A stretch of 64,000 nt of DNA from Amoebophrya sp. A120 (Eukaryota > Protista > Dinoflagellata). Location of the stretch: NCBI GenBank assembly GCA_905178155.1, contig CAJINV010000002.1:10210146-10274145 (forward strand), given 5' to 3'. The translations under genes and the position numbers were made by a program. Positions 3,760 to 60,400 of the stretch are shown here, piece by piece; position 1 is the stretch's first letter; each line of letters starts with the position of its first letter. Under the pieces are notes generated by a model, which saw nothing but the letters and a program-made list of their open reading frames with translations, was not told the DNA's origin and searched no databases.

Positions 3760-6164
3760 ATGGCTTCGTTTTTCGCGGAGCTGGTGGAGGGCTTTTCGGC
3801 TGATTATGCCCTGAAGCCCGCCGAATTCAAGCAGGCGGAAAGCATCAAGGAGAAGAAGATCAGCTACGGAAGGGTCTCGGAGCTGGTGAGTCAGTTTGAG
3901 GGACTAAAGGGAAAAAGCGGAAAGAGTAGTGGAAGTACATCTTCTCCGACCGGCGACCTTGCACAGCACCCGACTATAGGAGCGACAGCGGTACTACAAC
4001 TGCGGGAGCAAGAGTCCTCCTCCTGCACGGAATCTGCTAGCAGCACTGCAATATCTCACAGAAAAAAGCTGGCAGGGCATATTTGTAATGCAAAAATAAA
4101 TTTAAATACACAGAAAAACCTGTCATGGGCGACCTCGTAGCATGCTATTTCGGGTATGCAATACAAGTTTTTTTGTCTATTTATTTTTGCATTACAGCCA
4201 GCTTTTTTCTCTGGGATATGCAATCGCTCCAATCACCGGAAACATTTCGAGTTCCAGCTCCTCCTCCGGTGAGGAGCAGGGCACCTCGGCCTGGGGCCCA
4301 TCTTCTCGTGGTGCCGAAAACGGAGCGGCTTATCATGCGCAAGTGCATCTTCAACGGCGCCGGGCGCCGACAACTGCCGAACAGGAAGGAGACAATCCCT
4401 TCCTCGATTTTGCTTCGGGACTGTTCAACAGCTTGGTCAGCGGCGACTTTGAGTGGACGGATGGAGGCAGTAGCAGTAACGCGAACAGGAGACAAAGCAG
4501 ACCACCTGAGCAGCACCACGACCAGGGGTCCGCACTTTTCACGAGGGTCGCGACGAGTGACGAACCGATGACCCACACCAGCGCGCCCGCGCCCCACCCG
4601 GACCCGCTGCGAGCGCAAGGTTTATTTCCAATGCCACCGGAGCGACAGCCTGTTGCACAGGAGGAACCAGATGACATAGCGCACCCGGGAGGTGCGCCGG
4701 AACACTTGCAGTCGCCGAAATTATCCCACTCGTCAAGCTCCTCAGCAGCCACGCCGCCACGCACCGACGCAATGATTGCGTCGCCCGCTGCGGGCCGCGC
4801 TACCTCAACGACCTTTTCACCCGACCCGCCGCCGTCGAGCAACAAGAAGCTCCTTTCATCCGCCCCTGCACCGCCTTCAAACTCGCAGTTCGCTGCCGTG
4901 ATGCGGATAGAAAGAGAGTGGTACGAGAAGGGGGATGAGGAAATAAACGCGACCTGCTCCTCCGGCGCAGATGATGGGGTAACCGGAAGTAGTCAGAATA
5001 GGGTATCAGGCTCCTCGTCGACGAACACCGATATTGACGCCCGCCTGGAGAAGTTTCTCGCGCGTTTTGCTGACTACCAGACGGAAATCGTGAAGTTGCC
5101 GTCGGCGGCGTCGTCTTCGGCCGATGTCGGTAAACTAGTTATCCGGATTTGTCGTTTTTGATTCCTTTTTCGTTTCAAAACGGAATATCTCGTGCTGTGG
5201 AGGTTTGAGTGCTCGTAAAAAAATAGCATGATAATTATTCCAAACGAGTAGAAGAACGGAACCTTGTGCATAGATGCTTTTGGCATCATTATGCGTTACG
5301 ACTTCATCTGCACGATCATGAACAACAGGCTCCAGAGGAGGTCTCGTCACTGACCATCGGGCAACTACCGCACCGGCAGCAAACACGTACCGCATCCGCG
5401 GCCGCGACGTGGTGCTCCACTGGAACACGGACAGCTACTTCCTCGAGGTGATTGACGGGCCGATGCGGCAAAATTTGGAAGATTACCTGGTCACAGGTGA
5501 CGTCTCCACCGCACGGTACGACGAGCTTTCCCCGCTGAAGAAGCTGAACAAGTTCACCGACGCCAGTAGCTCCGCGAAAAAGCAGTTTTCCTTCAACGAC
5601 CACGAGTGTTCCTACAACCGCATCGAGGCGATGCGCGTCGCGAAGGAGCAGGCGAAGCTGCGCGCGAAGATGTCGGCATCGAATAGTTACACCGGAGAAA
5701 GCGGGTTGGGAGGCTCGATAAGCACAAGCAGCGTCCAGGCTTTTAGCAGGTATACTGAATTTTTATGCTAGGCGGGATCGATCTGCTTGTGTTCGTGTTG
5801 ACGTGTTATCGGCGCGTACGAAACCATGACAAAGTCATGCAGGGCTACTAGATAAAAACAGCATCAAGTGAATTTATTTACTCATTTCCGCAAACCGTAA
5901 ATAAACTCAAACTCCAGGTATCGTAAATGGCACGAAGCCGCGCTGAAGAAGGAAGCGCCGATCGACGCTTATGGCAATCGTGTGGAGCAATCGACCGGGC
6001 TTTCGTCGTACTTTGGCAGCATGTTTCAAAGTGACGCGGGGAGCAGCATGGTGACCGAAAGAGAGACCGGTATAGAGCGCCAAGGCACCGAGGTAAACAC
6101 AGACCCGGTAATGTACACCCCACCTGTAATGCTGAATCCTTTAGGAAGTTATGCCGCTCTGTAG
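3760..6164 (+). CDS. Hypothetical Ser/Pro-rich protein; exons ~3760-4051, 4224-5129, 5329-5749, 5918-6164
   Basis: ORFs 3760, 4142, 5409 and 5982 join in frame through one TIR-element intron and two GT-AG introns; no confident family (only a faint GAS2/GAR-like segment YRIRG...LEDYL). Confidence 0.7.
4052..4218. mobile_element. Introner-like TIR element, 167 bp (family C), TSD TGCAA
   Basis: TATCTCACAGAAAAAAGCTGGC...GCCAGCTTTTTTCTCTGGGATA plus inner IR TGTAATGCAAAAATAAAT; TGCAA at 4047-4051 and 4219-4223; removal gives ...STAIAPITGN... Confidence 0.9.
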
Positions 6165-13500: not shown

Positions 13501-16500
13501 ACAGAGCAACCAATTACTGTGTCATCGGACAGAACGGTCGTGACATTTGCTTCTGAAAAGGAGAAATTGATGAAGAATCCGAATCTTCTGTTGGACGAGC
13601 TTCATGCGTCGGGAAGAAGATCGAGTGATACTCATCTGCTTAGTTCCTCCTCGACAAAAACTCCAACTCTTCAGCCGGGCGACCTCATAGCGGGTCCCGC
13701 TTGGATCCTCGATGCTACGACCACGTGCGTCGTCGACGCCGGCTGCTTCGCCAGGATAAACGCCGAGTCGAGCATCGAACTCACGATTCCCCGAGCGGTG
13801 GACTCCACAATCACCCCTGCGGAGCTGAGCAGCTTGCAGACGCTTTCCACCGACTGCGGGAAGAGTATATTGGCATGGGGGGACGACGTCTTGCAGGATC
13901 AGAGGGGAAGGGAAGTGACGGAACAAATAAGCAAGCCAGATGCAGCACCAGCCGCTGGTGCGCGAGAAACAGTGTTGTCAGAGCGTGAACGAGTACAACC
14001 ACTTGGTTGTATGCAAGTAGTACGAACAAAGGAGAAGGCTTCTAAATCACCGCCAACAGCTGCAAAAAGTAGTGAGACACCTTCACCCACTCATGTACTG
14101 CGCCCGGACTCCGCCACCCTCTCAGTTTACGGACACCAATTTATGTCGATTGCGGAGCAGTGTGGTCGGGTGCTGCAACGAACGGCGGTGTCGGTGAACA
14201 TCAAGGAGCGTTTGGATTTCTCGTGTGCGATCTTCGATAAGGACGGGAACCTGGTTGCCAACGCGCCCCACGTGCCCGTGCATTTAGGTGCCATGGCGGA
14301 GACCATTAAGGCGCAGATTTTGCTGCGAAAAAGAGAGCTCGAGGAGTATGCGCGCAACGGTGCGACCACTAGTACCAGCACAGCAGGAGCACCAGAAGGT
14401 CGTTCTACTGCAACAGAATCAGCAGCTGCGGCAAGAAGCAATATTGGGAGCTGCAAAATAAAACCCGACAAGGATAGCACCTTCGCGTGGGTAACCAACG
14501 ACCCCTTTCTCGGTGGTAGCCACTTGCCGGACGTAACGGTGATCACGCCGGTATTTGAGGACGAGGAAACAACAAGCGGTACAACGCGTGAGCATCAAGA
14601 GGCCGAAGTACGAGCACTGTCAACAACAAGAAGTGCGAACGAAAAGGAAGACGCACGAACTTTGGTGAACACACCACGAGCTACAAAACCACATCGTGAA
14701 CTCCTCTTCTTCGTTGCGTGCCGGGGCCACCACGCGGACATCGGGGGCATTACCGCGGGTTCGATGCCCGCGAGGTCTACCAAGATAACGGAGGAGGGGG
14801 CGCTAATCACCTCTGAATTTTTGGTGAAGGGGAACGAATTTCAGGAGCAGAAAATGCGGGCGCTGTTCCGCGAATCCCGCAACCTGGACGACGTCATTTC
14901 CGACCTGAAGGCGCAGGTCGCAGCCAACTTCAGGGGGAAGGGCCTGTTGCTGAGTCTGCTGCGGCAGAACGGGCGGGACACCGTGCTGGCGTATATGAAA
15001 CATGTGCAGCAGTGGGCCAAGGGAGCGGTGCAGCAGATGTTGAAGCAGTTGTGCTCACAGTACGGCAAGAACGAGTTTTCCGCGGAGGAATACATGGACT
15101 GTGGAACGAAAATCCAGTTGAAAATCACCATGGAGGAGAGGAATCGCGAGGTGCATGGTGGTGATGAAGCTGGTTGTGGTTCAGCTTCTCCTTATGAAAA
15201 GATAGCCTCTGTTTATCACAGGGTTAAGCGCTTCATTCTTAAAAAATTCATTTGTCAAAAAAAAAATTTTTTTTAGTAAGGTTTGATGCACAGGAAGCTT
15301 CGCCTTTTCCACGACACCGGTTCCGCAGTTGTGACGAATCCACGGGGCAGATGTACTCCAGGAGAACGGCAGGATGGTTTGTTGATTTTTATGAATGATA
15401 ATACTAACTAGAATGGAGGCACAGCTAGCTAGATAATTCAATAGCATTCAAAAGATGTAAATGAAGGATCAACTCAGCAAACGAGACAGGAAGAACGTGG
15501 CTGTCAGGCAGCTGATGGTCAACGGGGAATCGTGGCTGTGTCTGCGCGTTCCCATTTACTGGAGATACCGGGGCATTCGTGGTGGAGCACAGCTGCTTCG
15601 CCACGATGTAAGTCCGTGGATTCGGGCGAATCCACGGACTTACATCGTGGCGAAGCAGCTGTGCTCCACCACGAATGCCCCTTTGCAGCGTCTGCCGGAG
15701 ATCCACAAGCTCCAATCCGTTTACCGGCCGTCGACTCCGCAGCTCCAGTCGCAGTTGTACACCAGAGCTTACAAAAGGGGTCCGCTATTTCTATTCAAAA
15801 TCAGTGATGTTATTTAATCTAACTAGCTGTGCCTCCATTCTAGTTATTTTACACTTTCATATCAACCAGCAGCAAGGTTCAGTCGTCGTTCCACTGGTCC
15901 AGGAGGTGCAGGTACCGCAATCGCCGTCGTCGACACGTAGCAGATGATGCTGTAAACAACACCATCAAACCTCACTAAAAAAAATTTTTTTTTTGACAAA
16001 TGAATTTTTTAAGAATGAATCATTTAGCCCTGTGATACTGTTGCACCTCCCGGAGACGCGAGCGAAAAGCACGACACCGCGACTTCCAATCACGCACTAC
16101 CAAGCCCAAGAACAGGAAGTCCGCAGCGCAAGGACCTGCAACTTCTTCCCGCCGCGAAGAGACGCAAAGTTAGTCAGGGGTCCCCTGCTGGTGTCGAAAA
16201 GCAGGACCAGAGTCGTGGAGGTCAGGATTTTTTCCAAGCGGTTTTTGATTTCACCGGCACAGGTCCGGAGCGCCCCGACTCGAACATCAACGCGCCGTCG
16301 GCAATCACTTCGGCCGCGATTATGTACTGTCTCCGGTCCCTCGTGAAGCAGGACATACCGCTGAATTCCGGGTGCCTGCTCCCGGTGAAAATTCTTCTGC
16401 CGGAGAAGTCCCTGCTCAACCCGAGCAACAATCTGGCGGTGTGCGCTGGGAACGTCACCACCTCCATGCGCATCGTGGACGTGATTTTGAAAGCGTTTCT

Positions 16501-24215: not shown

Positions 24216-24433
24216 AAGTGCCGGTCATTTTCGTTGGTCGGAGTTTCGTTTTCTGTGTAGGAGAAAAGTTTTGAGCAAGCAATGTTCAGGTTCATCATCA
24301 GCCCAGCCAACTATGCGAAAAGTCCTCAGGTATTGAACAATGCATGTGTTCTCGTTTTTGTAGTTCTCGTGGTTTCTTTGCCGGTACCTTCTACATTATG
24401 AGAAAAAAAACACAATTTCATTTAGTTCAAGTG

Positions 24434-26083
24434 CTACAGAAAGGATGCATTCGGGTCTAGTTGCAGCGCGTGTTGGAGGCTCAAAGCAGCTTCTTTCATC
24501 CCTTTTTTCGATTCCTCGACCTGTGTGAAAAAATCTTCGGCTTCAACGTCTGGACGCCGGTACCTATTTCTGTACTCGTCTAGGGGAGCAAGATCTGCGT
24601 CTTCGCTAAGTTTTTCTTTCGAAACCGTGCGACTTTCGAGCGCCTTTTGAATTTCCATTTGGGCGTGCTCTAGGTTGCCGCGATTCTCAGTTGTGAAGGT
24701 ACGCATTTCTGCCAGAGCGCGCTGCAGTACTTCGGCGTTGTGGTTCTTCGCGACCTCGTATCAACATGAAAAGCGTCCTCATCCTGGATCCAATCAAAGT
24801 TTGCGTGGCTGATATTAATGCATCAAGGGTCTGCGTTCATGTCTTAATTTGCAATGCTTCGCAGGGCAATAAACAGGTTGTCACCCGGAGCCGCGCCCTG
24901 CGGGGCTTTTGCTAAAAAACGCCTAAAAATTTTACGGGTCGCGCCAAAAGCCGGGACCCAGGCAGCCGGATCACCACATGGCGAGAGCGGCCACAAAGTT
25001 GGCCTCAGGGCGCGCCTACCCGCCCGGGGGTCGGCATCGAAGCAGAACGACGGCCGCTATCCGGCAAAGGCCAAGCGGGCAGGCACGCCCGCCCCGGACA
25101 AAGAGGTGGGCGCGGCACCGGACACAATTAGCGAAATCCGCGGCCGCCTTGAAGGGGGAAAAGGCAACACACCCCGCCAAGGGTCAGGGCGGTGTTCCGG
25201 GGCGTGGTCCACGCGAACGCGCCATCCTTCACCCGGGCCTCGCGAAATTAAGAGTCGGGGAAAAATAAGACGGCGCCAAGGAGCCGGGCCGCGGGCCCTT
25301 GAGGCCGCCTATTCGCCCCACTATCGGCGGGCTTATTTTCACGGCCCGAAAGTTGGCGGGCGCCTTTTTTGCGATTTCGTGTGCGATTTCAGTGTGCAAA
25401 AAAATAAAAGAAAAAATAAGCAAAAAAATAAGACCCCCCGGCCCGTGGCCGGGCGCGCAATAGGTGGGGGAATAAGAGAAAAAATAAGCGTTATTTTAGG
25501 CGAAAAAAATAAAAGAAAAAAATAAGACTTAAAAATAAGAAACAAAAGTAAGACCAAAAAGTAAGACCAAAAAATAAAACCAAAAAGTAAGACCAAAAAG
25601 TAAGACCAAAAAATAAGACCAAAAAGTAAGACCGAAAAGTAAGACCAAAAAGTAAGACCAAAAAGTAAGACGCAAAAACGGGCCAAAAAAATAAGAGCTT
25701 GGGCGCGGCCCTTAATTAGAGCGCAGCAAAGGTCTCGCGCACAAGGATGACACCCCGCCAGCTTTCTCCCAATTCCGGAAGTGCCTCAGGTGGGCGGCCG
25801 CAATGCAGCAGAGACCCGCGAAGAGCAAAAGGGGGCGAAGCCAGAAGCGAAAGCCTGTGCCGGAAAGGGCGAAGGCCATAAATTTTTTAGGCTTTAAATA
25901 GGGCCGCCACCGCAAGGCGCGGCGCAGGGTGAAGGTTGTTTCTTATTTTGGTATCATGCTTCATCTACCTGGGGAGGACTTCTCTTTTCAGGATGGTAAC
26001 TCGTATGCGGCTAGGTGCTGATCCAGACTCTTCGCTGCTTCTTCCACGACGACGCGCGCAGACGACGCAAGAGAGGTGCTCAT
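24434..26083 (-). CDS. Hypothetical ~134-aa helical protein split by a 1245-nt non-canonical intron
   Basis: MSTSLASSARVVVEEAAKSLDQHLAAYE joins in frame to (V/F)AKNHNAEVLQRALAEMRTFTTENR... once 24759-25998 plus 5 bp is removed. Confidence 0.7.
24759..25998. mobile_element. 1240-bp introner-like element with GC-rich cargo and a tandem array; TSD CCTCG/ACTCG
   Basis: Left end TATCAACATGAAAAGCGTCCTC; reverse complement of right end TACCATCCTGAAAAGAGAAGTCCTC; 4/5 TSD; removal restores the host frame. Confidence 0.75.
25517..25671. repeat. Tandem repeat, 13-bp unit AAAAAGTAAGACC, about 12 copies
   Basis: Directly visible array. Confidence 0.9.
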
Positions 26084-26567: not shown

Positions 26568-28736
26568 TCATTTTTTCTGTCGTTTTTGTTCGTGGGCAAG
26601 GCCTCCATCCCCGTTTTTCAGATACTTTTCCCACTTCTTGTGATTTAAGAACTTGAAGCTGGGCAGGTCCTTGATCTTCAGCAGGTAGTCTTTCAGTTTC
26701 AGCAGCTCAGTGTCGGTCCTCCCGTCTGTGAGTGCGTTCTTGAAGGGCCGGATCTTGAGTCCTTGCTGGGGGTTCAGCAGAAAATTCCGGCCCAAATCGT
26801 CAAACATGATCGTGTTCTCGGGATTGAAGTTTGCGCCGTAGTTCATCTGCTTGGCGTAGCGCCAAATCACCTCCAAAGGCTTGACTTTCACCACCGTTTG
26901 CTTTTTCGCGGACCAGGTGCTGATCATGGCCCGCGCGTCGAGCACGATGCAAAGGTTGAACGCGGTCGCTGGGGCGGCCAGAATTTCCAGCTGCTGCAGC
27001 TTCAAATCGATCCACTGCTTCCCGGTCGCGGACCAGATATGCTACGGAAAAACTACGCCATCAACTCCCTACGTGGTCTCAAGGTGCTAATATAATCATG
27101 TGAGTATTGAGCAAAATCTTATACAAAATTGTTCCAGCATAATTGCCTCGGTCTTTCTTATAGTTCTTTACTCCCTCACACTTACTTCACGCATTGAGAT
27201 GAAGAAATAGGCGACTCATTTCCGTTGGATACCAAATGCCAATGTCGTAATGCGGGTACACGGCGGTGAGGAACTCCATGAGGTACGGTCGGCGAAGCTG
27301 CAGCGCACTTTCTGCCGGGGTGCGGTGGTCGAAAAAGGTGTAGTCAATGTCGAGCATGAGCAGCTTCTTCCCCGGCCGCGGCGGGTTCACGATTTCGATG
27401 TAGTCCTTGCCGCGCGCCACGCGCTTGGCAATCTTGGCGTCGTCGGTTTCTGACAACACCGGTTGAAACACCGTGGACGAGCTGTAGTTGTTATTTGCCT
27501 CGTCGTCAAAGTCGTCGTCCTCGAAATCGTCCAGCGTGTCGGGGTATGCAGCGGGCAAGAGTACTCATACGTATTGACGATACGCGTTTTTGATAGGATC
27601 ATACGCACGACATCGGAAGACTTGTTCTCCGCTTTCAGAATCACAAGGCCACGAGACAGATTTAGAAATAGTGAAGTAGAGTAGAACGCTGTAAATATTA
27701 AACGATGTCTCATCTCTGGCTGGCAAGCTTCCTTCGTGGTGCAAAAAGACCACGACTCAAAACCGCATATGATCGTCGTGCCAAGGACTTTTGCGCAGGA
27801 TACGGTGGAACTGGCCAGGTCGTTAAACACGTCCATCATGGCATTGATCTCTGTTTCCGGCGACCCTAGAAGCATGACCGGAGAGCTCGGGTTTAGGATC
27901 TTCGCCCCCGCTGCAGTTTCTCCTCCTGGTGTTCCATCGGTTTTCATCTCTTCTTTCGGAACCAAGCTGAGGAAGTAGACCGCCAGTGATAGCGGTTTCT
28001 TCCGTGGACCGCTTTGCAGGGAGGCCGCCGGTTCGAGCTCCTCCTCCTTGATCGTTTTACCCTTGTACACGAGTTTCTGGCGGTGCGGCAGAATCTCGGT
28101 GAGGGAAAAGTATTACAGTGAAAAATGCCCCCCACCCCTGAAATTGCAAAAATTTGTGATGCGAAGTTTCCAAATGAAAACTTTTTGTCATGCATGAAAG
28201 GAGTATGAATCTTTCTGTTGCAGAGTCTAGGCGTGTATCGCATCGCTTGCATGACAAGCGCCGCTTTTGCTGGGGTCTTTTGCAAGACAAATTCTTGCTA
28301 TTCACGATTGGAAACTTGTGATGCTGATAGATGCAAGAGGGCGAAGGAATGTTTCATTTGGAAAGGTTTGCAATACAACTGCTCCCAAGTTCGGGGGTGG
28401 GGGCATTTTTCCTTTTGATAAAAAGAGCTCGTGCTTCAGCTCCTCCACCATGTAAACATGGAGGTCGTGCCCGATTTCGATGTCATAGACCTCTTTTTTC
28501 CATTTTACCTGCAGGATGAAGCTCTGCTGCTGTTTCTGCTGGGTTGAAACATCGGGATCTGATGTCGGCGCTCCAGTAGAGAGATCAATTTTATTTCCCT
28601 CCACTATCTGGGCGGGCGTAGGCTCGCTCGAGGACACGGACATTTCCTTGGAATCTTTTGTTACGTCGGCTGCTCGCGGGAGCTCGGCTGCAGCGGGTTG
28701 CGTCACTTCGGCCTGGTCCGTTGGCAGCATCGGCAT
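26568..28736 (-). CDS. UBLCP1: Ubiquitin-like domain-containing CTD phosphatase 1
   Basis: UBL segment (LQVKWKKEVYDI...ELFSLTEILPHRQKLVYKG) plus FCP/HAD motifs LDIDYTFFDHR, RPYLMEFL, YDIGIWSAT and NTIMFDDLGRNFLLNPQQGLKIRPFK; three non-canonical introns. Confidence 0.92.
27038..27231. mobile_element. Introner-like element, 194 bp, TSD CCAGA/CCAAA
   Basis: Ends TATGCTACGGAAAAA and (rc) TATCCAACGGAAATG; removal with 5 bp rebuilds the conserved DIGIWSATG. Confidence 0.8.
28111..28420. mobile_element. Introner-like element, 310 bp (family D), TSD AAAAG
   Basis: TATTACAGTGAAAAATGCCCCC... and (rc) TATCAAAAGGAAAAATGCCCCC...; perfect TSD; removal gives ELFSLTEILP. Confidence 0.9.
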
Positions 28737-35700: not shown

Positions 35701-38700
35701 TCTTTCAGATGCTGTGCGGTTTTCTTTTCCAAACTAGCCTCCCACTGCTCTCTCTTCTCCACCAGCAAAGCTCGCTCGACAATCAGCTCGTTCATGAGTT
35801 CCTGCTTCTCGTCGTTCAGCTGCTTCAGCTGCCGAATCAGCTGCTCCTCGGTTTTCCGCATCTGGTCGACCGTTTCCTTCGATTCGGAGGCGCGGAAATC
35901 GAGCTGCTTCTGCAGCTGCTGTTTCTCATCCTGCTCTGTCGCCAGTTTCGATTCCAGCTGCGTGTTTGTCGTTTGCTGCTTCAGCAGTTTCTTCTCCAGG
36001 TCGCTGATATTCGCTTCTTTCGCCTGCAACGTGGTTTGCAGCTCGGCGGTCTGCACGATTTGGTTTCGAATCAAACTTTTGTTTTTTCTCTTCTAGGGAG
36101 CACTTCTACAGGCTAGTAAAGGAAACGGGAAGCCAACCCTGCACTATGAAATACTAAGTCTCTTGCTCATCTTTCGCTACACATCAGCGAAATCGTTTCG
36201 TTCACAAGACACCAAGACACACACACCGACGTTCTTGGCATTCACTCGAATAGACAGATTTGAGATACACACTTTGCTTTCTTCCTACTGAAACCAGAAT
36301 CAGACACGGATATTATAAAACTTCAGTACTGTGGCAATTTGCGCCTCCAGCTTTTCCTTTTCGCAGACCATTTGCGCTTTAAGTTCGCTCACATTCAGTT
36401 CCACGCTTTCCTTCTCCTGTCTGACTTTCTCCATGATCCGCAGTCGCGTCTTTGCGACCCACTGGTGCGCAAACGTGTGTGCCTTCGCGATGGCTCTCTC
36501 TTTCCGCATTTTGATCATGATTTCCTGCACCTTTTTCACCTGCAGGTCCCGCTTGAACCGCTGTTTCGCCAGCAGCGTCCTCAGAAATGCCTGCAGCAAA
36601 ACCGCTGCCTTCAGTTTTCGCAAAAACTGCTTTCGCGCGAGACAGTGCCGCCAGAAGTTTTGCAGCTTCTTGATTGCGGTTTGCTTGAGTTCGGATTCTA
36701 GATCGCGGTTGTACGCTAGCTTCTTCAAAAACTTGCGCATGAGGTACTGAATTTTGGTCGCCTGTACCGACCGCTTGATCTGCTCCATGCGCCGCTTCGT
36801 TTCTTCGCGCTTTTGCTTTTGCCGCACCATCTCCTGTGCCTCGCGGAGGCCGTACACGTACTTTCGGGCGAGAACGCCGCGGACCAGTGCCTGGATCTTG
36901 TTCACCTTGAACCGCATGGAGAGGAAGTGTTTGCGGCATTTCCGCATCTTGCGGTAGGCGACGATAACTTTCTGCCCCCGGTCCTGCACTTTGAACGACA
37001 GCTGCCGGATCTGCTCGTACAAATTCTGCTTCAAGAAAACCAAGGATTTCCCGACGGCGTAGGGACAGACCTGTTTTGGAAACAATTTTTCTGGTCGAAG
37101 CAAGTGAATAAATCTTCCTGCGTGTCACGAGCGCTGAAAAATGAAAATCTTACGATCGGAAATCACGAAAAAGGACTCGTGGTATTGTTTGACGCGGCAA
37201 TCACGCCCGGAGACACCAATAGAAACTCGAGGCGCGTAAAACGCGACAACTTTTTTTTCTTTGCACTACTAGCGCTACTATCGCATAAAACTGAAGTTTA
37301 TTCCAGTAGGGCGAAAATAGCGACTCTGTAGGGCAGAAGCGTTTCGTGTCACAATGAATTCGTGAGTACCATTTAATGGCTACGACAGGATTCAGAACCA
37401 TCTGAAGAATGAACTTCGCATGTCTGAACGCGGCAATCACGCCCAGGGCAATGTAGTCAGAGACCCGAGGCGCGTAAATAACGCGACAATTTGCTTTTTG
37501 CACTACTAGCGCTACAATCGCATGAGAGAAAAAGCGAGAATAGCGACTCTGTAGGGCAGTGGGCTAATGTTTGTTCTCAAGAGATAGCTGACAGACTTTC
37601 AGAGGGTAGAAATGAAACGCGAAAGTGAACGCACTTATCTCCTGCTTGAATTAGAAACAGCGACAAGAACGTACCTCTCCGCCCTTCTGCGATTTGGATT
37701 TCTTCAGATTTCCCGGCGACGAGGTGATGGCGTGACCGCTACTATTTGTCCCGGAATTTCGATTTTTCATCATGCCTGTGCTATTCTTACCCGTCACTGC
37801 TCCCACACTTGCACTTCCCGTTCCCTTCATCAACTCCAGGCCACTGAATTCGTAGTGGTCCCCAATGTACGCCAGCAGCAGCTGCGACAGCTGATTCTGG
37901 TCCCGCAGCGTCTGCTTCAACGTGACGCGAATCTGTTTCCGCAGCTCCAAAGTGACCAGGCACCGAATCTGGCGCCAGAAATCCTCGTGCGACAAGCGGA
38001 TCGGATACCCGGCGCGCTGCGCTTCCACCACGGCCAGGACCCCCTGGTACCGCAGCTGTTCGCACACGAACTTCCTATCGTACTTGTCCGCCTTCTTCTC
38101 CAGGTTGGGCTTGATGCAGCGGATGAAGTGCGGCTCCGCGGCCGACAGGGTTTTGAGCAAATCGTCGAGCTGCTGTTTGAAAATGTGGCACAGCGTCGCC
38201 TGCTTCTTCCCGAACCGGGCGTTCCGGGACACGTCCAGCTGGGTTTTGTTACTGCCCCCGGTAGCGCTTTTATTAACATTCGTGCTACTGCCGGCGCCCC
38301 CGCTAGTACTGTCGTGGCTTTGGGGTTGGAACAGATTCCAGACGTACTTGTTCTGGCTGGTGGCCATGAGGTTCCAGACGTCCTGCGGGATCCCGTCCTT
38401 GTTTTTCTGCACGAACCCAGTGGAGGTGTAGTTCACCGGGCCGGCGTAGTGGTTCACGATGAAGCACTCCGGCTTGTGCTTGATCTCCCCGAAGTGGGCG
38501 TTCTTCTGCTCCTGGAGGAAGTTTTTCTTCAGCTTGTGCACAAAGCTGCGGTCGTTGCCGGTGGCCATCGAGCACTCGTCGTTCAGGACCGCAAAAATCC
38601 CGCTCCCGCGCTCCTCTATCAAATGTAAAAATGTCTGGGTCTGGAAGGTTGGAACTTGTCATGCAGATTTTACATGACCCGTGACGTCTGTGATGTATTC

Positions 38701-41700
38701 CCTAGCATCACAGATTTTCTGACTACGTCTTGATGCTTCTTCCGCATGACAAATGCACTCCCCGCGTAGCACCAACTGGACTCCTCTTGCTGGTCATGCA
38801 ATACAGATTTTTTTGGAATCCAAAGTTAGCATCACAAGTTCCAACTTTCCAGACCCAGACATTTTTACATTTGATACCTTCGATGAGCGCGCAACTGGCG
38901 GAGTTGTCCGGGAAGTCCAGGCTGCGCCAGTCGACGCCCTCGCGGTTGTACATCTTTGCCTCCTCCTGGAACACGTAGTTGTTGAAGTGCTTCTGCAGCC
39001 GCTCGTTGGCGTAATTGATGCACAGCTGCTCAAAGTGGTTGTCCTGGAAGCACTCGAAGCCGAAGATGTCCAGCACACCGATAAAAGTGGACACGGAGGG
39101 CACGTACCCGATGCTGCTGTTGGCCTGCTGCACCATCTTGTTGAACAGCAGCGAGTAAAAGTGCCGCGCAAAACTGTCCATGGTCTCCTTCGCCTTCTGG
39201 ACGCTGTTGCGCTTCGTGAACTGGTCGTTGGGCGTGACCACGTACTGGGAAGTGATCGCCGCCTCAAAGTCCTCCGCTTTCAGCCCCAAACACTTTTCCG
39301 CGATGTAGTCGCCGTGCTTCTTCGTTTCCTTCGAAAAGGAACTGTCGTCGGCCCCGCCTGTCGTGTGATGCTTTTGCTCCGTCCATAAACGAGAGGATAC
39401 AAATCGATTTTTTTGTTTATTGATCTCGTCGAGGTTATAAATTCTGAAAGGAAGATGGTATTCGTGGAGCATCATGTAAGCCATGTAAGTGGGAACTTTT
39501 GCATGCGTTCTTTGTTTCATCAGTCGAAAGATGGTGATTTTTTTCTCCGCAACCACGAACCTTGCGGACAAGGCGCATGTCAGCAAGAGGGTTAAATGTT
39601 TGTCCATCATTTTAAGGGAAGAACCTACTACTAGCTCCTTTCTCGATCATCTTACCTTGCCGACGGAAGTCGTTTACGGCGGAGCTCTTAGCGCGATCCA
39701 TCATGTGAAGTGTCTACATCTTTAGATCGCATCTTACATCTTGAACCTCGACAGCACAGATGTCAGTCGTGATCGTTCTCCAATTGCTGCGGATTTTTAT
39801 TCTTGTCCACGATGCCTAGCCAGCGAAATCGACTTTCTTCGAGCTCTTCATCACTTTGTGGTGACGCATCAACAGATCGGTTCTACTAGTACCTTCAAAC
39901 TCCACGAGCCCGAGGCGTAGAACTGCCCCAATGCAGCGCAGCAAATCTTCGAGCTCGCCTTGGTCGAGGCCGATCGTTTGCAGGGCAAACACCGTGTGCT
40001 CGAAGTCCACCAGGTCTGTGCTGCTGTAGCCCTCGTTCGAACTGGTCATGGCCTGCAGGTCAACCCCGACGAACGGCGTCAAATCGATTTCCCACGCTTG
40101 CGTGTCCGACGTGCAAATGTCCATGCCGCTGGCCAGCGCCCCGCTGTTGCCCCCGCTGGTGCTGTCCTGCAGCTGCGACAGCTTTTGTGGAAACTTGTAC
40201 ACGTGCTTGGTCGTGGTCGAGGCCTCTTCGGATTGTATCTCCACGGTTTCCGTCGCCGCCCGCGCGCACTGGTACATGATGTGAAACGTGCGCTCGCCCG
40301 GCATCTGCTTGGTCACGCGCACCTTCTCCAGTAGGTAGGTCAGGATGCGGGCGCCGCTCAGCCGCGTGTGGCGGAACTGCAGCTCGATGAACTTCCCGAA
40401 CCGGCTGCTGTTGTCGTTCCGGAGAGTCTTCGCGTTGCCGAAGGCTTCCAGCAGGGGGTTGGTCTGCAGCACCTGGTTGTCCACGTGCGAGCCCAGGCTC
40501 TGGACCGCGCGCCGCACCTTGTCCCAGTTCGTCTTTCGCCGGTTGCTGTTGTGGATCGAGTCCATCAACGTCGCGTTCTGCGTGATGTCCGAGGGCGGGA
40601 TGATGCCCGACTTGTTGTCCGGAATGGTGGGCAGCTGCTGCTGCACGGACCCCGCGATGGACATGGTGTGCAGCCCGCCGAAAAAGTTCCCGCTTGACGC
40701 CACGGTCGGCACGACGTTGCACTGCAACAAAGGGCCGGCCTGCACCAAGAACCGCATCACGTACTTGGTCGTCTCGGTCTTGCCGCTTCCCGACTCGCCA
40801 CTGATCAGAATCACCTGCGACTGTTTGTTGTCCAGGATGCCCTTGTAGGCACGCGCCGCCGTGGCGTAGGCAGACGGAACCCAGGCTGTTCAGTAGATGT
40901 TGATCGTCGATCAGGGAGGTGGTGCATGCATGACTTGATAACGATATTACCATTGAACGATATAATGAAGTCGTAGAAGTCGAAATGAAGTCAGTATTAC
41001 AGTTGATATATTCGCAGCAGTGTTTTCGCCGAAATTAGTAGCCGTAGGTGCGCAAAGAAAAAACTTCTTCTCGAGCAAAGCTATACGAAAAACTCGCCAC
41101 CGTCTTACCCTTCTTCGACATGCACGCCCGTATGTTGATGGGCCCGCCCCCACCGTTTCCGGCGTTCCCGGAGGTCAGATGGTGGTGCTTCAGGTCGCCG
41201 CAGCCCGCGGCCGATCCGGCCAGCATCGACTGCACGGAAGACAGGTCGTCCATCTTGATCGACACCCGTCCGCTGATATCGTAAGCAAAAATCCCTCCTC
41301 CCCATATTCAACAAAAGGTTTTTGATGCGCGACTTGTGTACACAAATCGACGTGCATTGCTGGTGGAAGCCAAAGGGACACACCTGCGCCCTAGTTTTCA
41401 CGCAGTGCAGTCGCTCCCTGTCATCCTGACGACTTAAGTCCTTCCACGCCAGACAGCACTCAAGTCCGCATCTCTACTTCCCAGGACACGTTGATGTGTG
41501 ATTACGAATCATGCTAGTAAAACAAGTTCTACTTTACCGAATATCATGGGGAAGAGGGTTTTTTCACTTCGATACCTGACCCGGGGCACGTCGGAGGACC
41601 CGTGCGAGCCCAGGTGCGATGGCTCCACCTCGACCACGTAGGGCTCGTAGGTCAGGTAGGAGTGCATCAGCTCGGGTGAGTACAGGTTCGGGATCTGCTT

Positions 41701-42923: not shown

Positions 42924-45327
42924 TCAGTACCTTCCTTGCGAATTATCCTGGGGTGGGGTTGTACTATCAATGTCCCCATCTGCTCCTCGCCTCCTGCAAG
43001 AACTGGGACAACATGCACAACAGCACCTTTCGAGTGCCGGAAACCTACGTAAACATCGCACCAACAAGGAATTTTGTATCCATCTTGGCCAGCTGTTGGG
43101 GGGCGGGCGGAGCCGCTTGTAGTCGGTGCACACGAGCAGCACGGTGGACAGGAAGGCGCACCCTGTGATGGCAAACCAGATCAGGTACATGGGCATAATG
43201 AAGGACTCGTCTCGATCTTCGACCACCGCGCTGAACACGTTGCTCACCGCCGAAAAGAGCCAAAGAAACACGCACAGCACGGGCCCCTTCTCGTTGAACC
43301 ACCGGCTGCTCGTCTCCACTTTCCTGCGTCCCGGGTACATCGCCTTTTTGAAGCACACGAACACGCCGAACAGGAAAATTGGCACCATGCGCCGACTATC
43401 CCGGGAAAAAGGAACCTCGCACCTCTAACAATTCCACGTTCGCCACTGCATCTAAGTACTCATCTGTTACTCTTGATAGTACTAGAAGATCCCTACTTGA
43501 TGCAGCAGCCTTCGATGATTTTGTTAATTGTTAATCGCGATTTGCATGATGTAAGCCCATGACGAAATGTTGCCTGCGTGAGGACAAAAATACTTACTTA
43601 TTATAGAAAGCATGGTTTGAGCGGTTGGTCACTGTATGTAATGCATTGTGAATGAGGGCGAGGTTCTTTCACAGCTGCGTAGACACTTGCATCGGAGGGG
43701 TCCGTCAGCTGTGTGTGGTCTACGTAAAGGAACCAGTTTCCGAAGACGATCCAGGCGTGGAGAAAGCGGTCCGTCTGGCGCTCGAGGTTGCTCATGCAGG
43801 CCAGGAGCAGGTGGCAGAAGGAGACGGACAGCAGGTACAGGGTCATCGCGCGCCACTGGTACACGTCCAATCCGTACAGCTTTCGGTGCGTCAGGTCGTG
43901 CAGCGCCCGGCGCGCGTCCAGATCTCTCTGCCCGGGGTTACGGGAATACAGATCCTCAATGTAGTAGGCCGTGTCGTTTGCGATGTCATACTTGATGCTC
44001 GCAATCGTGCAGAGCAGCATCGGCGTATCAGGGTGCACAATTTTTCCCCAAATCCCCTTCTTGTTCAAACTCGAAAGAGGAACTATGATTATCAATCACA
44101 ATATGAGGCACGGAAAATAACCGTACTGTTTTGTTGATAGATACCACTACAGGCTCTACGGGAATAGAAGTGCGGTTACGTAAAAAACGCAGCAGAAGGG
44201 AGAGTTGAAAAATGGCCAAAAAGTCAGGTGGGGGGGTTGTGCACGCTGATACAAAGAAGAAAACCCGAAGGCGAACGTGAAGACATGCTCCCACCTATCA
44301 TATTGAGAGGCGCCCCCCCGCTCCAAGAAGTTGTTGTTTTGTACTATTTGATGTATGCGCCGCTTTTTGCTTTATTATTATATATCCAGCCTTGACATGC
44401 TCGACGTCACCTTTACTTTATGTCGTTCTCTTTTTCCAAGATAATGCAGTGAAATCTTGCAAGAGTTGTGTTGCTGATACAAACTCTCACGTTCAAGTGC
44501 CACATGCTTCATTTGTGTTTCATGTTTATCCAAATCAATCGCGAAGCTTTACGAATACAAAGATAGATCGACATCCCATTCTTGGGGCGGTAGGGACGCA
44601 TTTCATCTGGATACCACCCGTAGCCGCGCCGCAGGTAGACTCCGGCCTGCCCAAAGTAGGGACAATGCGCAAGGATGATGAGCAGCATGTTATCCTGAGT
44701 AAAAACGTACCCACACCAGAGTTGTAATGCAAATCTGCATGCTGAAAATGTTTCTCATGCGGAGCCCCATGAGAAGCATTTTCTAGTCGTGTTTTGCAAT
44801 TTGTCATGCTCCAATCAGCATGGTATGCTAGATCTGTGATGCTGCTGAGCTAGCTCAAACAGCACTACACTACGAATCCAAATTTGTCATGCAAAACAGC
44901 CAAAACTTGTGGATTTGTCTAGCCGATTCCCCATCTTGACTATGGTGTGGGTACGTTTTTACTCAGGATACATGTTAAACCAGAACAAACCCTCCGTTAC
45001 CAAATGTAAAAATGTCTGGGTCTGGAAGAATGCAACTTGTAATGCGTATTTCAGAACACAGAAAAGTCTCTCATGCATACGCAGCAAAAGCTCCCACTTT
45101 TTGCCAGCAAAATAGGGGACCTGTCATGCGGATTCGGCATTGCGGAAGGTTCTCGAAACCTGTGATGCTAGAGCTTCCATGCCAGACCTTCTGTGTCATG
45201 CAAAAACAGCATGACTCTTCCAGACCCAGACATTTTTACATTTGATATCCGTCGGACCGGAACCATTTTCGGCTTCGGTTTTCGGTGCGGTTTTATGCGC
45301 ACAGAGAGGGAACTCAACAAGCATCAT
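42924..45327 (-). CDS. Multi-exon multi-pass membrane protein (weakly TMEM8/DUF3522-like); boundaries approximate
   Basis: Removing the two elements gives PTEGLFWFNMLLIILAHCPYFGQAGVYLRRGYG; further hydrophobic exons at ~43690-44050 and ~43000-43420. Confidence 0.55.
44691..44970. mobile_element. Family B introner-like element, 280 bp, TSD CATGT
   Basis: Perfect TIR TATCCTGAGTAAAAACGTACCCACACCA; perfect TSD. Confidence 0.95.
44998..45247. mobile_element. Family A introner-like element, 250 bp, TSD TCCGT
   Basis: TACCAAATGTAAAAATGTCTGGGTCTGGAAG...CATTTTTACATTTGATA; perfect TSD. Confidence 0.93.
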
Positions 45328-51678: not shown

Positions 51679-53189
51679 TCACGTCGAGCCAGAGGAACGC
51701 AGACAGCTCCCGCAGAGCATTTTTATGCCTGAATAGACCATGGAAAAAATGAGGTTCAGAAACCGCGTGCCGCCGGGTACGTAGGACAGCAGAATGTAGG
51801 CTAAGGAGACGAGCTCGCCGACCACACAGAACAGTGTGAGAAAGTACGACTTCAGGACCAGCGAAGCATACAGTACGCCGAGGAAGCTCAGGCAGTAACC
51901 AACCGCGAAAGCGGCGCGCTCCGACGCAAACGCGAAGGACAGAAAGGCGCTCTGTTTTGATAATTTTAATTTGAATTAGGTGGCGCTGCATTCGTTCTAC
52001 CTTCACACCAGCCAGTATTCGTTCTTCAAACTACTAACAGTAAATACGCATAGCGTGAAACAAGAACTACTCGCGAGAGCTAAGCCTTAGCGCTAGCATA
52101 ATTCAAACGAGTGCATCACGTGAACCGGCCCAAGACGAAGTAGTACTTACCATTCCCCGCAGCGAGACGTTCGCACTGACGATGCTGAGCGAGCCCATGG
52201 AGAAGAGAAGCGCAAATTTTTGCGGCGCTAGGACCACCACAGGCAGAAACATCATGGACATGCCGACCATTTATCAAATGTAAAAATGTCTGGGTCTGGA
52301 AGATTGCCAGGTTTGTCATGCTCTTTTTGGATTCTAAAAAAATCTGCATTGCATGAGCAGCAAAGAGAGTCCAAGTTTTGCTACACGGAAAGAGCATTTG
52401 TCATGCGATATAGGCATCAGGAAGCCCTCACAAAATCTGTGATGCTAGGGCATGCATCACAGACATCAGGAGTCATGCAAAATGTGCATGACAAACCTGG
52501 CAATCTTCCAGACCCAGACATTTTTACATTTGATACCATTATCATTCCGACCACCAGCAATATCGCAAACCACTGCATGCGCTCAGCGCTGGGTGGAGCA
52601 ACAGATTCGACGGAAGTCCTTATGCTGGAGCCAGTGGATTCGAGCGCACCTGAAGATTTGTAGTTGGCGAAGTTCACTCTGATGAAGTGTAGCCGTCGTC
52701 GTGCGTTAACAATTACGCTATCAATCTCTGTGGTGCGATGCACCGCAGTATTCCTCCATCACAGAAGGCTGTAGAAGCAGTTCTTATTCACAACATCGCA
52801 AGCGCAGAATGAGGGGACGAATACGAATCACAATCGAACTAGAAGAGGCTGCAGCCCCGCCGTCCTGCGTTCGAGACAGCGGGAGTATGATGCAGCACTA
52901 GCTCTGTTAACTGAGTAAGGAAGTAGGTACCCGCAACGCGATCCACTGGCGCATACTCCCGGGCGGACTGTGCCGTGGTTGATATTTTTTCCTTGAACGA
53001 CCCGGCTACACTGCCAAAAAACCTTCCCGCTTGTTGTGCGGCCTGCTGCGCCTTCTGTGCAGCATTTTGTGGTTGCGAACTCGAGGATTGCGAGGTGCCA
53101 GACTCCAGATCTACAAAGTCTTGCGTTCCGCCGAACACGCCCCATTGCTTCTGCTTATGCTGCTGCGAAAACGCTGATAAAGCGGACAT
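51679..53189 (-). CDS. SFT2: SFT2/Got1-family vesicle transport membrane protein; multi-exon
   Basis: After element removal: ERMQWFAILLVVGMIMVGMSMMFLPVVVLAPQKFALLFSMGSL...LRG; last exon ...LKSYFLTL...YILLSYVPGG. Confidence 0.85.
52272..52535. mobile_element. Family A introner-like element, 264 bp, perfect 50-bp TIRs, TSD CCATT
   Basis: TATCAAATGTAAAAATGTCTGGGTCTGGAAGATTGCCAGGTTTGTCATGC at both ends. Confidence 0.96.
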
Positions 53190-57400: not shown

Positions 57401-60400
57401 TTTGTGTTTGTAATTGTATCCTACAGTTACTACATGACAAATGAGGGGGAGAGACACGAGCCGTGCAGTTTCATAGCGCTCCTCCAGTGTTTTAAACAGT
57501 TGCTCGTCCTTCACGTCAAATTGCGCCTTCACGTCGAGCAGTTTCTTGTCCACATCGAGCTTCTCGGTTTTCAGCGTCTGATACTTGTCGATCTGCTGCT
57601 GCAGCAGGGTCTCCGCACTTAGTCGGGAAGTTGATGCTTTCTCGTGGCCAGCAGCTCCGTTGGTGTTCTCATCTCTACTCGGCGCCTTTGCTTTCAGTGC
57701 AGCCACCTCATCCCTCAGCTCGTCCGCCTCGTCTGCGGTCTTCTGAAGGAGTACGACCTGTTTCTGCAAATCCGCAATCTCTCTCTCCAACTTTTCCGTT
57801 GCGGTTTTCTTTTCGGCCTCCGCCTGCTTCAACCTCTCTGCCATCAAGTCGCGCACTTCAACATCTTGTGGTATTTGTATGTGTGCCTTTTTGCCACCTT
57901 CTGCGTCCTTCAGTTTTGACTTCATCTCCACCACCAACAGTTCGGATTTCCCGAGTTGGTCCTTCAGGGACAAGACGTGCTGTTCCAAAGACTCGCGTTC
58001 TTCGTTTAGCTGCAACTGCAGGGCTTGCTTCTGCATTTGGAGCTCCACCTGCATCAACTGCAGCTTCTGCTCCAGCTCGGCTTCCTTTCGCTGCAACTTT
58101 TCCTCATGCTGGGCCTTGCTTTTCTGCAGCAGATTCTCCAGGATCTTTACGTCCGCTCTCGTCTCTTCGTCTACTACGTCCGTGCTTGTTGTTCCTGTCT
58201 TCTTCGCCTGTTGTACTAGCTGGTCTGTCTCGGACGTTGAAGAAGGCTCCTGGGATTCGAATTTCACAGGAGGCGACGACGTGTTGGTCGCTGCGTTCGC
58301 TTTCTGCTTTTGGTTATCGCCTTCCGTCTCGGTTCCGGTTGCGGCGTCGGACGTAGAAAACGCGTCTTCCTTTGCGTCCTCTCCATCCGCCAATGTGCCG
58401 ACGTCCTTCAACTGCCTGCCGTTCTTCCACCGCCGGGGCGAACTCTCCTCGGACTTTTTCGGAGTCATTTGCTTCTGCAGCTTCGCCTCCCTGGCGATGG
58501 CCGTCTGGATGCTTGCGAGCTCCGTCTTCGTAGTTGCCAGTTCCCTCTCTAGACCTTCCTTCGAAGCTTGCATCTTTTCGAACTGCAGACCGGATTCGGT
58601 AATCTTCACCGTGGCCGTCACCAGCTGCTGCTGCGACTCTTGCTATGCATTGCAAATATGTCTGGGTCTGGAAGGATGCAATTTGTGATGCTGCCTCTGA
58701 ATTCTACAAAAATCTGTATTGCATGAACAGGAAAAGAGGTCCAGTTTTTGCCAGGGGGAGAGGGCATTTCTCATGCGATATAGGCATCAGGAAGCCCTCA
58801 CAAAATCTGTGATGCTAGGGCATACATCACAGACATCAGGAGTCATGCAAAATGTGCATGACAGACCTTGCATCCTTTCAGACCCAGACATTTTTACGGT
58901 TGATACTTGCAGTTGCTGCACGAAATTCAGTCGCTGCTTCTCCACCTCCTGGTTGATGCTCAAAATTTCGTTGTGCAACTGTTCATTCTCTCTTTCGAGC
59001 TCGCGCACCTTGCTGCTCGTGGAAGGCGAGAGCGTATCGGCTTTCGTCGCTTGAGGTGGGCTTCGCGCTAGGATGTCCCTTGGAATGGCCTTGAAAAACT
59101 GTGGACCCGCACTCTCCTGTTGAATCGCGGGAGGTTCGTCTGCTGGCAGTTGCTCTTCGGTGGTCGAAGGGTGGTCAGCATTGCGACGTGAGGTTTGCGC
59201 AGCTGTATCAGACACTTCTGCCTCCACCTGTCGCTCTCTACTTCGCTTCATCAGCTGTTCGCGTTGCTCTTTGACCCGCTGTTTCAAAAAGTCCAGTTCG
59301 GCGTCTTTCGCTTCGATTTCGTTCTCAAACTCGACCTGCTTCAGGTCTAACTCGCGCGTTTTGCTCTGTATCTCCCGGTCGTAATTCAGCAGCTCCTGCG
59401 TTTTCAAATTCAGCTCAAATGCGTGCTTCTCCTTACTCTGCTCTGCAGACTTTTCGTACTCCGAAAGCCGGGCTTCGTAGTCCGTGGCGAGCGCCTTTGC
59501 CTCTTCCTCCTTGGTCCGCTTTTCCTCCGTCAATTTCACCCGCAGTTCGTTTAGTTCCTCTCTCAGCTTTTGCTTCTCCACCCGTAACTCCATGACCTCG
59601 GATCGGTCAATCTCCTGCTCGCCCTCGAAAAACTTTATGCCCGCGGATTTATCCGAGACGGCATACGTTCCGTCGTCTGACGCGTTGGGCTCGGGGCTGC
59701 TGAGCATCGGGAGAACCCCCGGTTGGTGATGCGACTGCTGCGACGAGGGATTTTCGTTTTCTTGATGCCCCTTCGAGGAAAGATTGGACTGCTGGTCGTT
59801 GAATATCGTGTCGTTCGAGGATTTTTTGGTGCTCTCTCGGTCTACCTCCACTTGATGCCGGCGCGAAAGTGATGAAACCCCGGCGTCCTGCGGCCTTCGT
59901 TGTTCGTCCTCGGGGGTGGATGAAGGCGAGGCTTCGGCTTCGGTCCTTTTGTTCATCGCAGCCCTCTCCGCGAGAAGCTCCTCGCGCTCGGCCAAGATTT
60001 TTTTCTCCGCCTCAATGGCCCTGGTTTCCGCTTGGAACAGCCGGGACTCGATTTCCTGGATCCGGTCGTTTTTCTGCTCTTCAATCTCCTGTTTTCTGGC
60101 CTTTTCAATTTGTAGCAGACTCTCCATCGCATTCTGCTTGTTCTGCAACTCCTGCTTTTGCAACTCCAGAAGCTCGACTTTCTGCTGCGCTTCCCGCACT
60201 TCTGCGTCGGCGTTCCGTTTTGTTGTACTTGCGGGCCCATTTTGTAGTTGTAGTTCCGCGTCTTGTTCTTTGGTTTTCGCAGATAGCTTTTCGTTTTCCT
60301 TTTCAAACTTCGTGTTTTCGAGCTGCAGTGCGTCCACGAGCGCCCGCAACCGGTCCACCTCATCGCGGTTTTGTTCCTTCATTTCCAGAATGACCTCCGA

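What the first reader, a model, noticed from the sequence alone, without database searches (positions are those of the whole stretch)
4047..58910. 14 TIR elements with 5-bp TSDs sit in exons and must be removed as element plus one TSD copy: a non-canonical intron system
Seen: elements start at 4052, 15214, 24759, 27038, 28111, 29770, 30894, 33934, 38617, 41277, 44691, 44998, 52272 and 58644. All interrupt reading frames and I noticed none between genes. Ten have perfect but different 5-bp flanking duplications (TGCAA, CTGTT, AAAAG, CGCGT, ACTGT, CATAG, CATGT, TCCGT, CCATT, CTTGC). Deleting the element plus 5 bp rebuilds the frame in all 14, including conserved motifs (DIGIWSAT in UBLCP1, VIAIYDFE and LAIGDTRGHI in the myosin). 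Known: IR/DR non-canonical introner elements are reported in Amoebophrya, so the class itself is not new. Inference: these are MITE-like DNA transposons removed scarlessly at RNA (or DNA) level by a mechanism that reads the TIR stem rather than GT-AG.
Basis: partly seen in the sequence, partly recalled or inferred. Interest (0 to 1): 0.9.

Follow-up and report, generated by a model that had tools for sequence, protein, structure and literature searches.

The report
Known transposon introns, fixed cut site
These are the already-described transposon-derived introns of the marine parasite Amoebophrya A120; assembled transcript-like sequences lack them without a scar, and the few informative junctions put the cut one base before and four bases after the element, likely measured from the element's ends rather than at the usual GT-AG signals.

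Summary
Real, but already published for this organism. Three window proteins are 100% identical to records named Amoebophrya sp. A120, and the element ends (TAT-N7-AAA, 5-bp direct repeats) are the A120 introner signature of Farhat 2021 (PMC7789003). All 14 elements exist; 10 have perfect 5-bp TSDs; I found 4 more. Contigs from probable RNA runs skip element+5 nt directly at 6 of 9 reader elements laid, indirectly at 2; one had no cover. They also skip GT-AG introns, while a DNA-like run keeps the elements. 206 of 254 further copies have perfect 5-bp TSDs, sit in both orientations, and rarely allow GT-AG. New detail: where the two TSD copies differ, three RNA joints and three deposited proteins agree on one cut only: intron = 1 TSD base + element + 4 TSD bases (N-TAY...RTA-NNNN). 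The paper called this border variable or unknown. Old copies with eroded stems and 2/5 TSDs still splice this way, so the tips matter more than the stem or the repeat. The machinery is untested; a relaxed spliceosome is my best guess.

The parts
4052..4218 (+). introner, 167 nt, perfect TSD; predicted intron 4051-4222 (AT..CA)
   Evidence: no RNA laid
15214..16037 (+). introner, 824 nt, perfect TSD, inner inverted repeats; in a 5-oxoprolinase/hydantoinase gene; predicted intron 15213-16041
   Evidence: no RNA laid
24759..25998 (-). old introner, TSD 4/5, 182-nt core plus nested element; intron 24755-25999 fits deposited P0001
24882..25931 (.). nested GC-rich TIR element (CA..TG ends, 8-bp flanks matching 7/8, 13-bp tandem array); hAT-like by ends and TSD length (family traits recalled)
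27038..27231 (-). introner in UBLCP1-like gene, TSD 4/5; intron 27034-27232
   Evidence: (contigs of X1, X2 stop at 27031)
27545..27802 (-). missed old introner in UBLCP1-like gene, TSD 4/5; intron 27541-27803
   Evidence: deposited P0002; X1 contig middle length 612 fits
28111..28420 (-). introner in UBLCP1-like gene, perfect TSD
   Evidence: (contig resumes at 28421)
29770..30136 (-). introner near the 3' end of the myosin gene, perfect TSD
   Evidence: X1 and X2 contigs skip 372 nt = 367+5
30894..31160 (-). introner in myosin tail, perfect TSD
   Evidence: skip of 272 nt = 267+5
33934..34213 (-). introner in myosin tail, perfect TSD
   Evidence: skip of 285 nt = 280+5
38617..38876 (-). introner in myosin head, TSD 3/5; RNA cut after TSD base 3 or 4
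   Evidence: joint 38612>38878 (one contig of X1), 1 ambiguous base
41277..41574 (-). introner in myosin head, TSD 4/5; GT-AG in the 1+4 register
   Evidence: no RNA cover
43397..43681 (-). missed old introner, TSD 2/5; intron 43393-43682 (CT..CG), unambiguous 1+4 cut
   Evidence: joint 43392>43683 in 4 of 4 runs, 0 ambiguous bases
44026..44251 (-). missed old introner, TSD 2/5; RNA cut after TSD base 4 or 5
   Evidence: joint 44020>44252 in 4 of 4 runs
44296..44613 (-). missed old introner, perfect TSD, eroded arms
   Evidence: skip of 323 nt = 318+5 in 4 of 4 runs
44691..44970 (-). introner, perfect TSD; same family as 33934 in the opposite orientation
   Evidence: skip of 285 nt in 4 of 4 runs
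44998..45247 (-). introner, perfect TSD; deposited model P0011 starts inside it
   Evidence: skip of 255 nt in 4 of 4 runs
52272..52535 (-). introner in Got1/Sft2-like gene, perfect TSD
   Evidence: no RNA laid
58644..58905 (-). introner in a long gene without Pfam hits, perfect TSD
   Evidence: no RNA laid
36051..36329 (-). canonical GT-AG intron, control (others near 39358-39892, 40886-41108, 46659-46868)

Best explanation
These are Amoebophrya A120 introner elements, short TIR elements flanked by 5-bp duplications and absent from transcript-like contigs, likely non-autonomous DNA transposons that are cut from pre-mRNA at a fixed place (one base before the element, four bases after it) by what is predicted to be a spliceosome tolerant of non-GT-AG ends. 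Shown: anatomy, 5-bp TSD with no sequence preference, both orientations in genes, removal of element+5 nt, and a 1+4 cut at the informative junctions. Inferred: a transposase supplied in trans made a 5-nt staggered cut. Because 1+4 = 5 and the copies are identical at insertion, the cut restores the exon exactly, so any exonic insertion is tolerated. The symmetric tips supply the signals in either orientation: the 5' end reads N-TAY, sharing +2 T and +3 A with the host's canonical donors (GTAC, GTAA, GTAT), and the 3' site lies 4 nt past RTA, with the arms probably helping to bring the ends together. The machinery is untested.
For: Organism. Published motif and 5-bp DR. RNA skips. Canonical introns skipped in the same runs, and DNA-like run X5 running through four elements in one 5.9-kb contig. 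Register (TSD bases kept upstream): RNA joints allow 3-4 (38617), exactly 4 (43397), 4-5 (44026); deposited proteins allow 0-4, 2-5 and 4-5; only 4 fits all. The nine commonest A120 non-canonical sites in the paper's Table S4 all start NT. TSD 206/254 perfect at 5 bp, at most 1 at lengths 4 and 6-10. Orientation 31:34, 15:19, 5:10, 7:5 in the four largest families. In loci of 1.5 kb or more, removing element+5 gives an exonic call in 136/185 versus 28 and 29 for +3 and +4. Canonical donor comparison. The paper reports a near-complete spliceosome with U1 undetected.
Against: The register rests on three RNA joints from one sample (the 38617 joint from a single contig) and three deposited models that are not independent of RNA evidence; all are in minus-strand genes. 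X1-X4 are only guessed to be RNA and are contigs, so minor alternative cuts are invisible. No drift towards GT or AG: G at +1 in 56/160 (p=0.27), AG at the 3' end in 14/160. Nothing here shows a lariat or spliceosome contact. No transposase was found. [quoted passage not shown]
Confidence: 0.62

Rival explanations
1. Same elements and same 1+4 cut, but removal is by a non-spliceosomal, structure-guided endonuclease/ligase route that reads the terminal stem with its 1-nt 5' and 4-nt 3' overhangs, as suggested for euglenid nonconventional introns.
For: No GT or AG requirement; works in both orientations; young elements fold into long end-to-end stems (38617: z = -12.2); U1 not detected in A120; euglenid TIR introns leave as circles without lariats (review PMC11282704).
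Against: Old elements splice with weak stems (43397: z = -2.3; positions 8-20 identical at 29/52). Positions 4-7 are often unpaired even in young copies. The cut puts TA at +2/+3 like the canonical donors.
Confidence: 0.27
2. The cut slides within the TSD (several registers are used), as the published figure legend suggests, and the agreement on 1+4 here is a small-sample effect.
For: Fig. 3 legend of PMC7789003. TSD mismatches fall at third codon positions in 20/32 (p=0.002 against 36%, 0.06 against a model with free intronic copies), which could mean both copies are constrained. Contigs hide minor forms.
Against: Six constraints intersect at one register, one with zero ambiguity in 4 runs. 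Table S4's top sites are all NT. Perfect TSDs make aligners place junctions arbitrarily, which would by itself give apparent variability.
Confidence: 0.15
3. The skips are reverse-transcriptase template switching across a hairpin between direct repeats.
For: Hairpin plus short direct repeat is the classic setting for this artefact (own knowledge); all RNA evidence here is presumably cDNA-based.
Against: The joints at 43397 and 44026 have 0 and 1 shared base and weak stems, yet are the assembled form in 4 of 4 runs. Conserved UBLCP1 and myosin-head frames need the removal.
Confidence: 0.03
4. The elements are excised from DNA in expressing cells, like ciliate IESs.
For: The ends are transposon ends; X5's joint table was truncated (487 rows not shown), so rare empty sites are not excluded.
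Against: X5 contigs run from unique flanks into or through the elements. The cut is asymmetric in the direction of transcription at five insertions although element orientation is random.
Confidence: 0.03

Closest known systems
Amoebophrya A120 introner elements (Farhat et al. 2021, PMC7789003; Gozashti et al. 2025, PMC12130899)
   Same: Same organism; TAT + 7 variable nt + AAA ends; 5-bp direct repeats (Fig. S19 legend); about 250 nt; non-canonical sites; RNA-supported; classed mostly as TIR DNA elements of unknown superfamily in the 21 of 58 dataset rows seen.
   Different: No difference in kind. Added here: one fixed 1+4 cut, where the Fig. 3 legend says the border is variable or unknown and the dataset rows give mixed TSD lengths (2-5) and mixed co-opt/carry calls.
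Euglenid nonconventional introns (review PMC11282704)
   Same: TIR-paired ends, TSD-like repeats at the junctions, no GT-AG, probable MITE origin.
   Different: Euglenid pairing uses +4..+6 with -8..-6; here +2 pairs with -5. Circular excision products are shown there and untested here.
Micromonas, Aureococcus and Polarella introners
   Same: TIR+TSD transposons that become introns by using part of the TSD.
   Different: Those create or co-opt GT/GC and AG sites; here neither dinucleotide is needed or enriched.
Fritillaria non-canonical introns (PMC11282704, PMC13326754)
   Same: Mass non-GT-AG introns of transposon origin, handled by a changed major spliceosome.
   Different: Fritillaria keeps preferred dinucleotides (AG-AC, AG-AT) and U1; A120 has any base at +1 and any 3' dinucleotide, and U1 was not detected.
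IS3EU/GingerRoot DNA transposons (PMC10045372)
   Same: TA..TA termini with TIRs.
   Different: TSD usually 6 bp there, 5 bp here (206/254 versus 0/254 at 6 bp); no transposase available to compare.

Membership tests
Amoebophrya A120 introner elements | Host is Amoebophrya A120 | tested here: met
   P0001, P0002, P0011 100% identical and named A120 by their sources; window GC 50.9% versus 51.2% published
Amoebophrya A120 introner elements | Inverted repeat beginning TAT, seven variable nt, then at least three A | tested here: met
   End profile of 28 window ends against the paper's text; some old copies have lost the A-run
Amoebophrya A120 introner elements | 3-5 nt direct repeat overlapping the exon/intron border | tested here: met
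   11 of 18 perfect 5-bp in the window; 206 of 254 in L001-L150
Amoebophrya A120 introner elements | Spliced out of transcripts at non-GT-AG sites | tested here: met
   9 direct skips in RNA-like contigs, including CT..CG at 43393-43682
Amoebophrya A120 introner elements | Repeated at unrelated loci | tested here: met
   9 of 18 have relatives among the 254 copies, 9 have none in that sample; 148 of 160 called copies fall in families
MITE / non-autonomous TIR DNA transposon | TIRs, fixed-length TSD, no coding capacity | tested here: met
MITE / non-autonomous TIR DNA transposon | Cognate autonomous element or transposase | tested here: inconclusive
   No transposase family in 103 of 116 long ORFs of the loci that were scanned or in 3 ORFs inside window elements; no whole genome held
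IS3EU/GingerRoot | TA..TA termini | tested here: met
   note the search itself required TA
IS3EU/GingerRoot | 6-bp TSD | tested here: not met
   0 of 254 at 6 bp
Spliceosomal (U2-type) intron | GT/GC..AG ends | tested here: not met
   5 of 160 are G[TCA]-AG in the 1+4 register, 21 of 160 in any register
Spliceosomal (U2-type) intron | Lariat intermediate, U2/U6 dependence | not testable with these tools
   Only contigs were available for this strain; raw-read run X9 did not align to exons
Euglenid-type nonconventional intron | Excised as full-length circle | not testable with these tools
   needs intron-product sequencing

The most novel reading that the evidence does not exclude
A120 has a ruler-type splicing route: it recognises the transposon tip (TAY..RTA) and cuts exactly 1 nt before and 4 nt after it, whatever the flanking bases, the TSD match or the element's orientation, possibly with no GT/AG chemistry or spliceosome at all. 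The 1+4 spacing equals the transposase's 5-nt stagger, so tens of thousands of random exonic insertions are silent.
Probability: 0.3. Interest if true: 0.75.

Novelty: already known. Interest (0 to 1): 0.32.

Why it matters
The elements themselves are in print for this strain (about 29,850 copies). What could matter is the fixed cut. It turns an apparently patternless set of splice sites into one rule (N-TAY ... RTA-NNNN), explains why insertion anywhere in an exon is harmless, gives exact substrates for asking how an organism with no detected U1 snRNA splices them, and would correct gene models (one deposited model here starts inside an element).

Tried and rejected
No whole genome was held, so genome-wide tests used 150 loci from one collection scan, a partial sample picked by one family's 20-mer. 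No holder was listed as RNA on record; raw-read run X9 laid only on element ends and told nothing about splicing. 41277 had no cover. A GT bias at +1 seen in the window (8 of 14, 10 of the 17) vanished in 160 copies (56/160): rejected. Using stop codons to fix the register in 26 imperfect-TSD copies excluded only one register in one copy. Sense and antisense end-stems fold equally (67 versus 79). A position-4 orientation bias (34 versus 17, p=0.024) is one of 12 tests and is not claimed. A relaxed scan for more old elements gave 3 new candidates against 2.65 expected: not counted. 23111-23616 was called by the profile but lies in an AT-rich repeat stretch and was dropped from the window set. 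No transposase in the ORFs scanned. No Rfam match. No earlier findings. The idea that the 3' tip (TTGATA) is a branch site at -7 is untested; the T two places before the A is present in only 57%, and a search for a fixed-distance precedent returned nothing.
Full report
Observation. The 14 elements are at the stated starts, begin TAT (TAC at one end of two of them) and end in the complement. Ten have the perfect 5-bp flanks listed; 24759, 27038, 38617 and 41277 match 4/5, 4/5, 3/5 and 4/5. A strict signature occurs 10 times in the window and never in 30 shuffles. Removing element+5 clearly gives the best open frame in 9 of 14; the other five are supported by RNA joints, a deposited protein or a domain hit. 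Pfam supports the host genes: oxoprolinase, NIF phosphatase (UBLCP1-like), myosin head and Got1/Sft2. The Myosin_head profile runs 291-431 before and 438-644 after the 38617 element. The UBLCP1 junction lies in a motif shared with 6 homologues.

Identity. Three window proteins are 100% identical to records named Amoebophrya sp. A120. Farhat et al. 2021 (PMC7789003; seen: abstract, passages, Results parts 1 and 3 of 3, sections 10, 16 and 32, supplement parts 1-2 and table rows; figures not seen) describe A120 introner ends as TAT, seven less conserved bases, then at least three A, with 3-5 nt direct repeats, a 5-bp example and 29,850 copies. The window's end profile matches. Gozashti et al. 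2025 (PMC12130899; passages and 21 of 58 A120 dataset rows; two supplement files not searched) class most of the families seen as TIR DNA elements of unknown superfamily. So these are the published elements in the published strain.

RNA test. Four runs guessed to be RNA (X1-X4, one sample, contigs only) were laid on 26.3-47.6 kb in two calls (X3 and X4 only on 37.6-47.6 kb). Of the nine reader elements in range, six are skipped directly by exactly element+5 (29770, 30894, 33934; 38617, 44691, 44998). Two are supported indirectly: contig pieces stop at 27031 and resume at 28421, and the unseen middle is 612 nt as predicted. The same runs skip four GT-AG introns, so they behave as spliced transcripts. 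The DNA-like run X5 has contigs running from unique flanks into elements, and one 5.9-kb contig through four of them. These runs may share a source with the window and are not independent support.

More copies. A collection scan with one family's 20-mer gave 150 stored loci, 406 kb, none overlapping the window beyond element matches. Calling elements without using the flanks gave 254 copies: 206 with perfect 5-bp TSDs, 28 at 4/5, 10 at 3/5, 10 lower; perfect matches at other lengths were 25 (2 bp), 5 (3 bp) and at most 1. Five had flanks too short, 165 got a coding strand and 160 of those had TSD of 3/5 or better. In these the TSD has no base preference, families sit in both orientations, and GT-AG is possible in any register in only 11. 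Removing +5 gives an exonic call in 136 of 185 versus 28 and 29 for +3 and +4, and 264 of 600 random positions.

The cut. With identical TSD copies the junction cannot be placed, which probably explains why the paper's Fig. 3 legend calls the sites variable and the border unknown. Unequal copies place it. Counting TSD bases kept in the upstream exon: RNA joints allow 3-4 at 38617, exactly 4 at 43397 (no ambiguous base, 4 of 4 runs) and 4-5 at 44026; the contig end at 27031 implies at least 2 at 27038; deposited proteins allow 0-4 (P0001), 2-5 (P0002) and 4-5 (P0011). Only 4 fits all. The intron is therefore one TSD base, the element and four TSD bases. [quoted passage not shown] I found no paper stating it in searches; subscription papers, figures and unseen supplements could hold it. 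The sample is small and all informative junctions are in minus-strand genes.

What is read. Not GT or AG. Not a perfect repeat: two elements with 2/5 TSDs splice in all four runs. Probably not a perfect stem: positions 4-7 pair in 51-86% of young copies while 11-13 pair in 97-99%, and the four old elements found by RNA or annotation keep 11 of 12 tip positions but only 29 of 52 at positions 8-20; 43397 folds weakly (z -2.3) against 38617 (z -12.2). The cut puts the element's TA at +2/+3, as in the four canonical donors seen. I infer that the tips are the signal, with arm pairing as an aid, and that a spliceosome relaxed at G+1 and AG does the work: the paper finds most spliceosomal parts but no U1, and a changed major spliceosome handles non-canonical transposon introns in Fritillaria (PMC11282704 section 6; PMC13326754 listing and passages). 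A euglenid-like non-spliceosomal route remains open. The asymmetry follows transcription although element orientation is random, which argues for RNA-level over DNA-level removal; joints with 0-1 shared base argue against template switching.

Mobility. A fixed 5-bp TSD implies a staggered cut by a transposase in trans (established transposon biology). TA..TA ends resemble IS3EU/GingerRoot, but those usually make 6-bp TSDs (PMC10045372 passages), so membership is not met. No transposase family was found in 103 of 116 long ORFs of the loci; the paper reports none in A120, and Gozashti 2025 reports one family with ORFs homologous to Copia/Gypsy elements inside TIRs. A review repeats the A120 figures without a mechanism (PMC11453091 passages).

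Verdict. Observation confirmed and extended to 18 elements; interpretation right in outline; novelty low because these are the published A120 introners. The fixed 1+4 cut is a modest, testable addition. My odds: identity about 0.97, RNA-level removal 0.93, fixed register 0.8, spliceosome as the machinery about 0.65. Interest 0.32.

Noticed in passing
window 24882-25931: A 1050-nt GC-rich element with its own TIRs (CACCC..GGGTG), 8-bp flanks matching 7/8 and a 13-bp tandem array is nested inside the 24759 introner; hAT-like by recalled traits. Introners can shelter other transposons inside genes.
   Followed up: partly
window 15380-15871 and 15570-15681: The 824-nt introner holds an inner inverted repeat and a perfect 55-bp hairpin, perhaps nested insertions; no relatives among the 150 loci.
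   Followed up: partly
window 42.7-45.6 kb: All five introns of this gene seen in RNA-like contigs are introners of different ages. Deposited model P0011 starts inside element 44998 (45078-45004), whereas contigs of 4 runs remove it, leaving a 339-aa frame from the first Met.
   Followed up: yes
L001-L150: Insertion phase is uneven in 160 called copies: in the 1+4 register, phase 0/1/2 = 78/33/49 (p=6e-5), with no obvious TSD sequence preference. Unexplained.
   Followed up: partly
L001-L150: Elements are called exonic more often (136/185) than random positions in the same loci (264/600); 49 were uncalled and 10 of these have 13 or fewer open codons on one side, so some may be non-coding.
   Followed up: partly
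window 29.7-42.1 kb: Large myosin with N-terminal SH3-like domain, head, IQ motifs and weak beta-propeller hits in the tail; resembles alveolate myosin F by architecture (recalled, not tested).
   Followed up: no
window 57194-57261: Frame change between two long ORFs, probably an ordinary intron; no introner signature found and no RNA laid.
   Followed up: partly
window 22.8-24.2 kb: AT-rich stretch with loose inverted repeats (GC 39% in the 22-24 kb bin); not an introner.
   Followed up: no
window 19624-19651: 21-28 nt match to introner families outside any called element; possibly a remnant.
   Followed up: no
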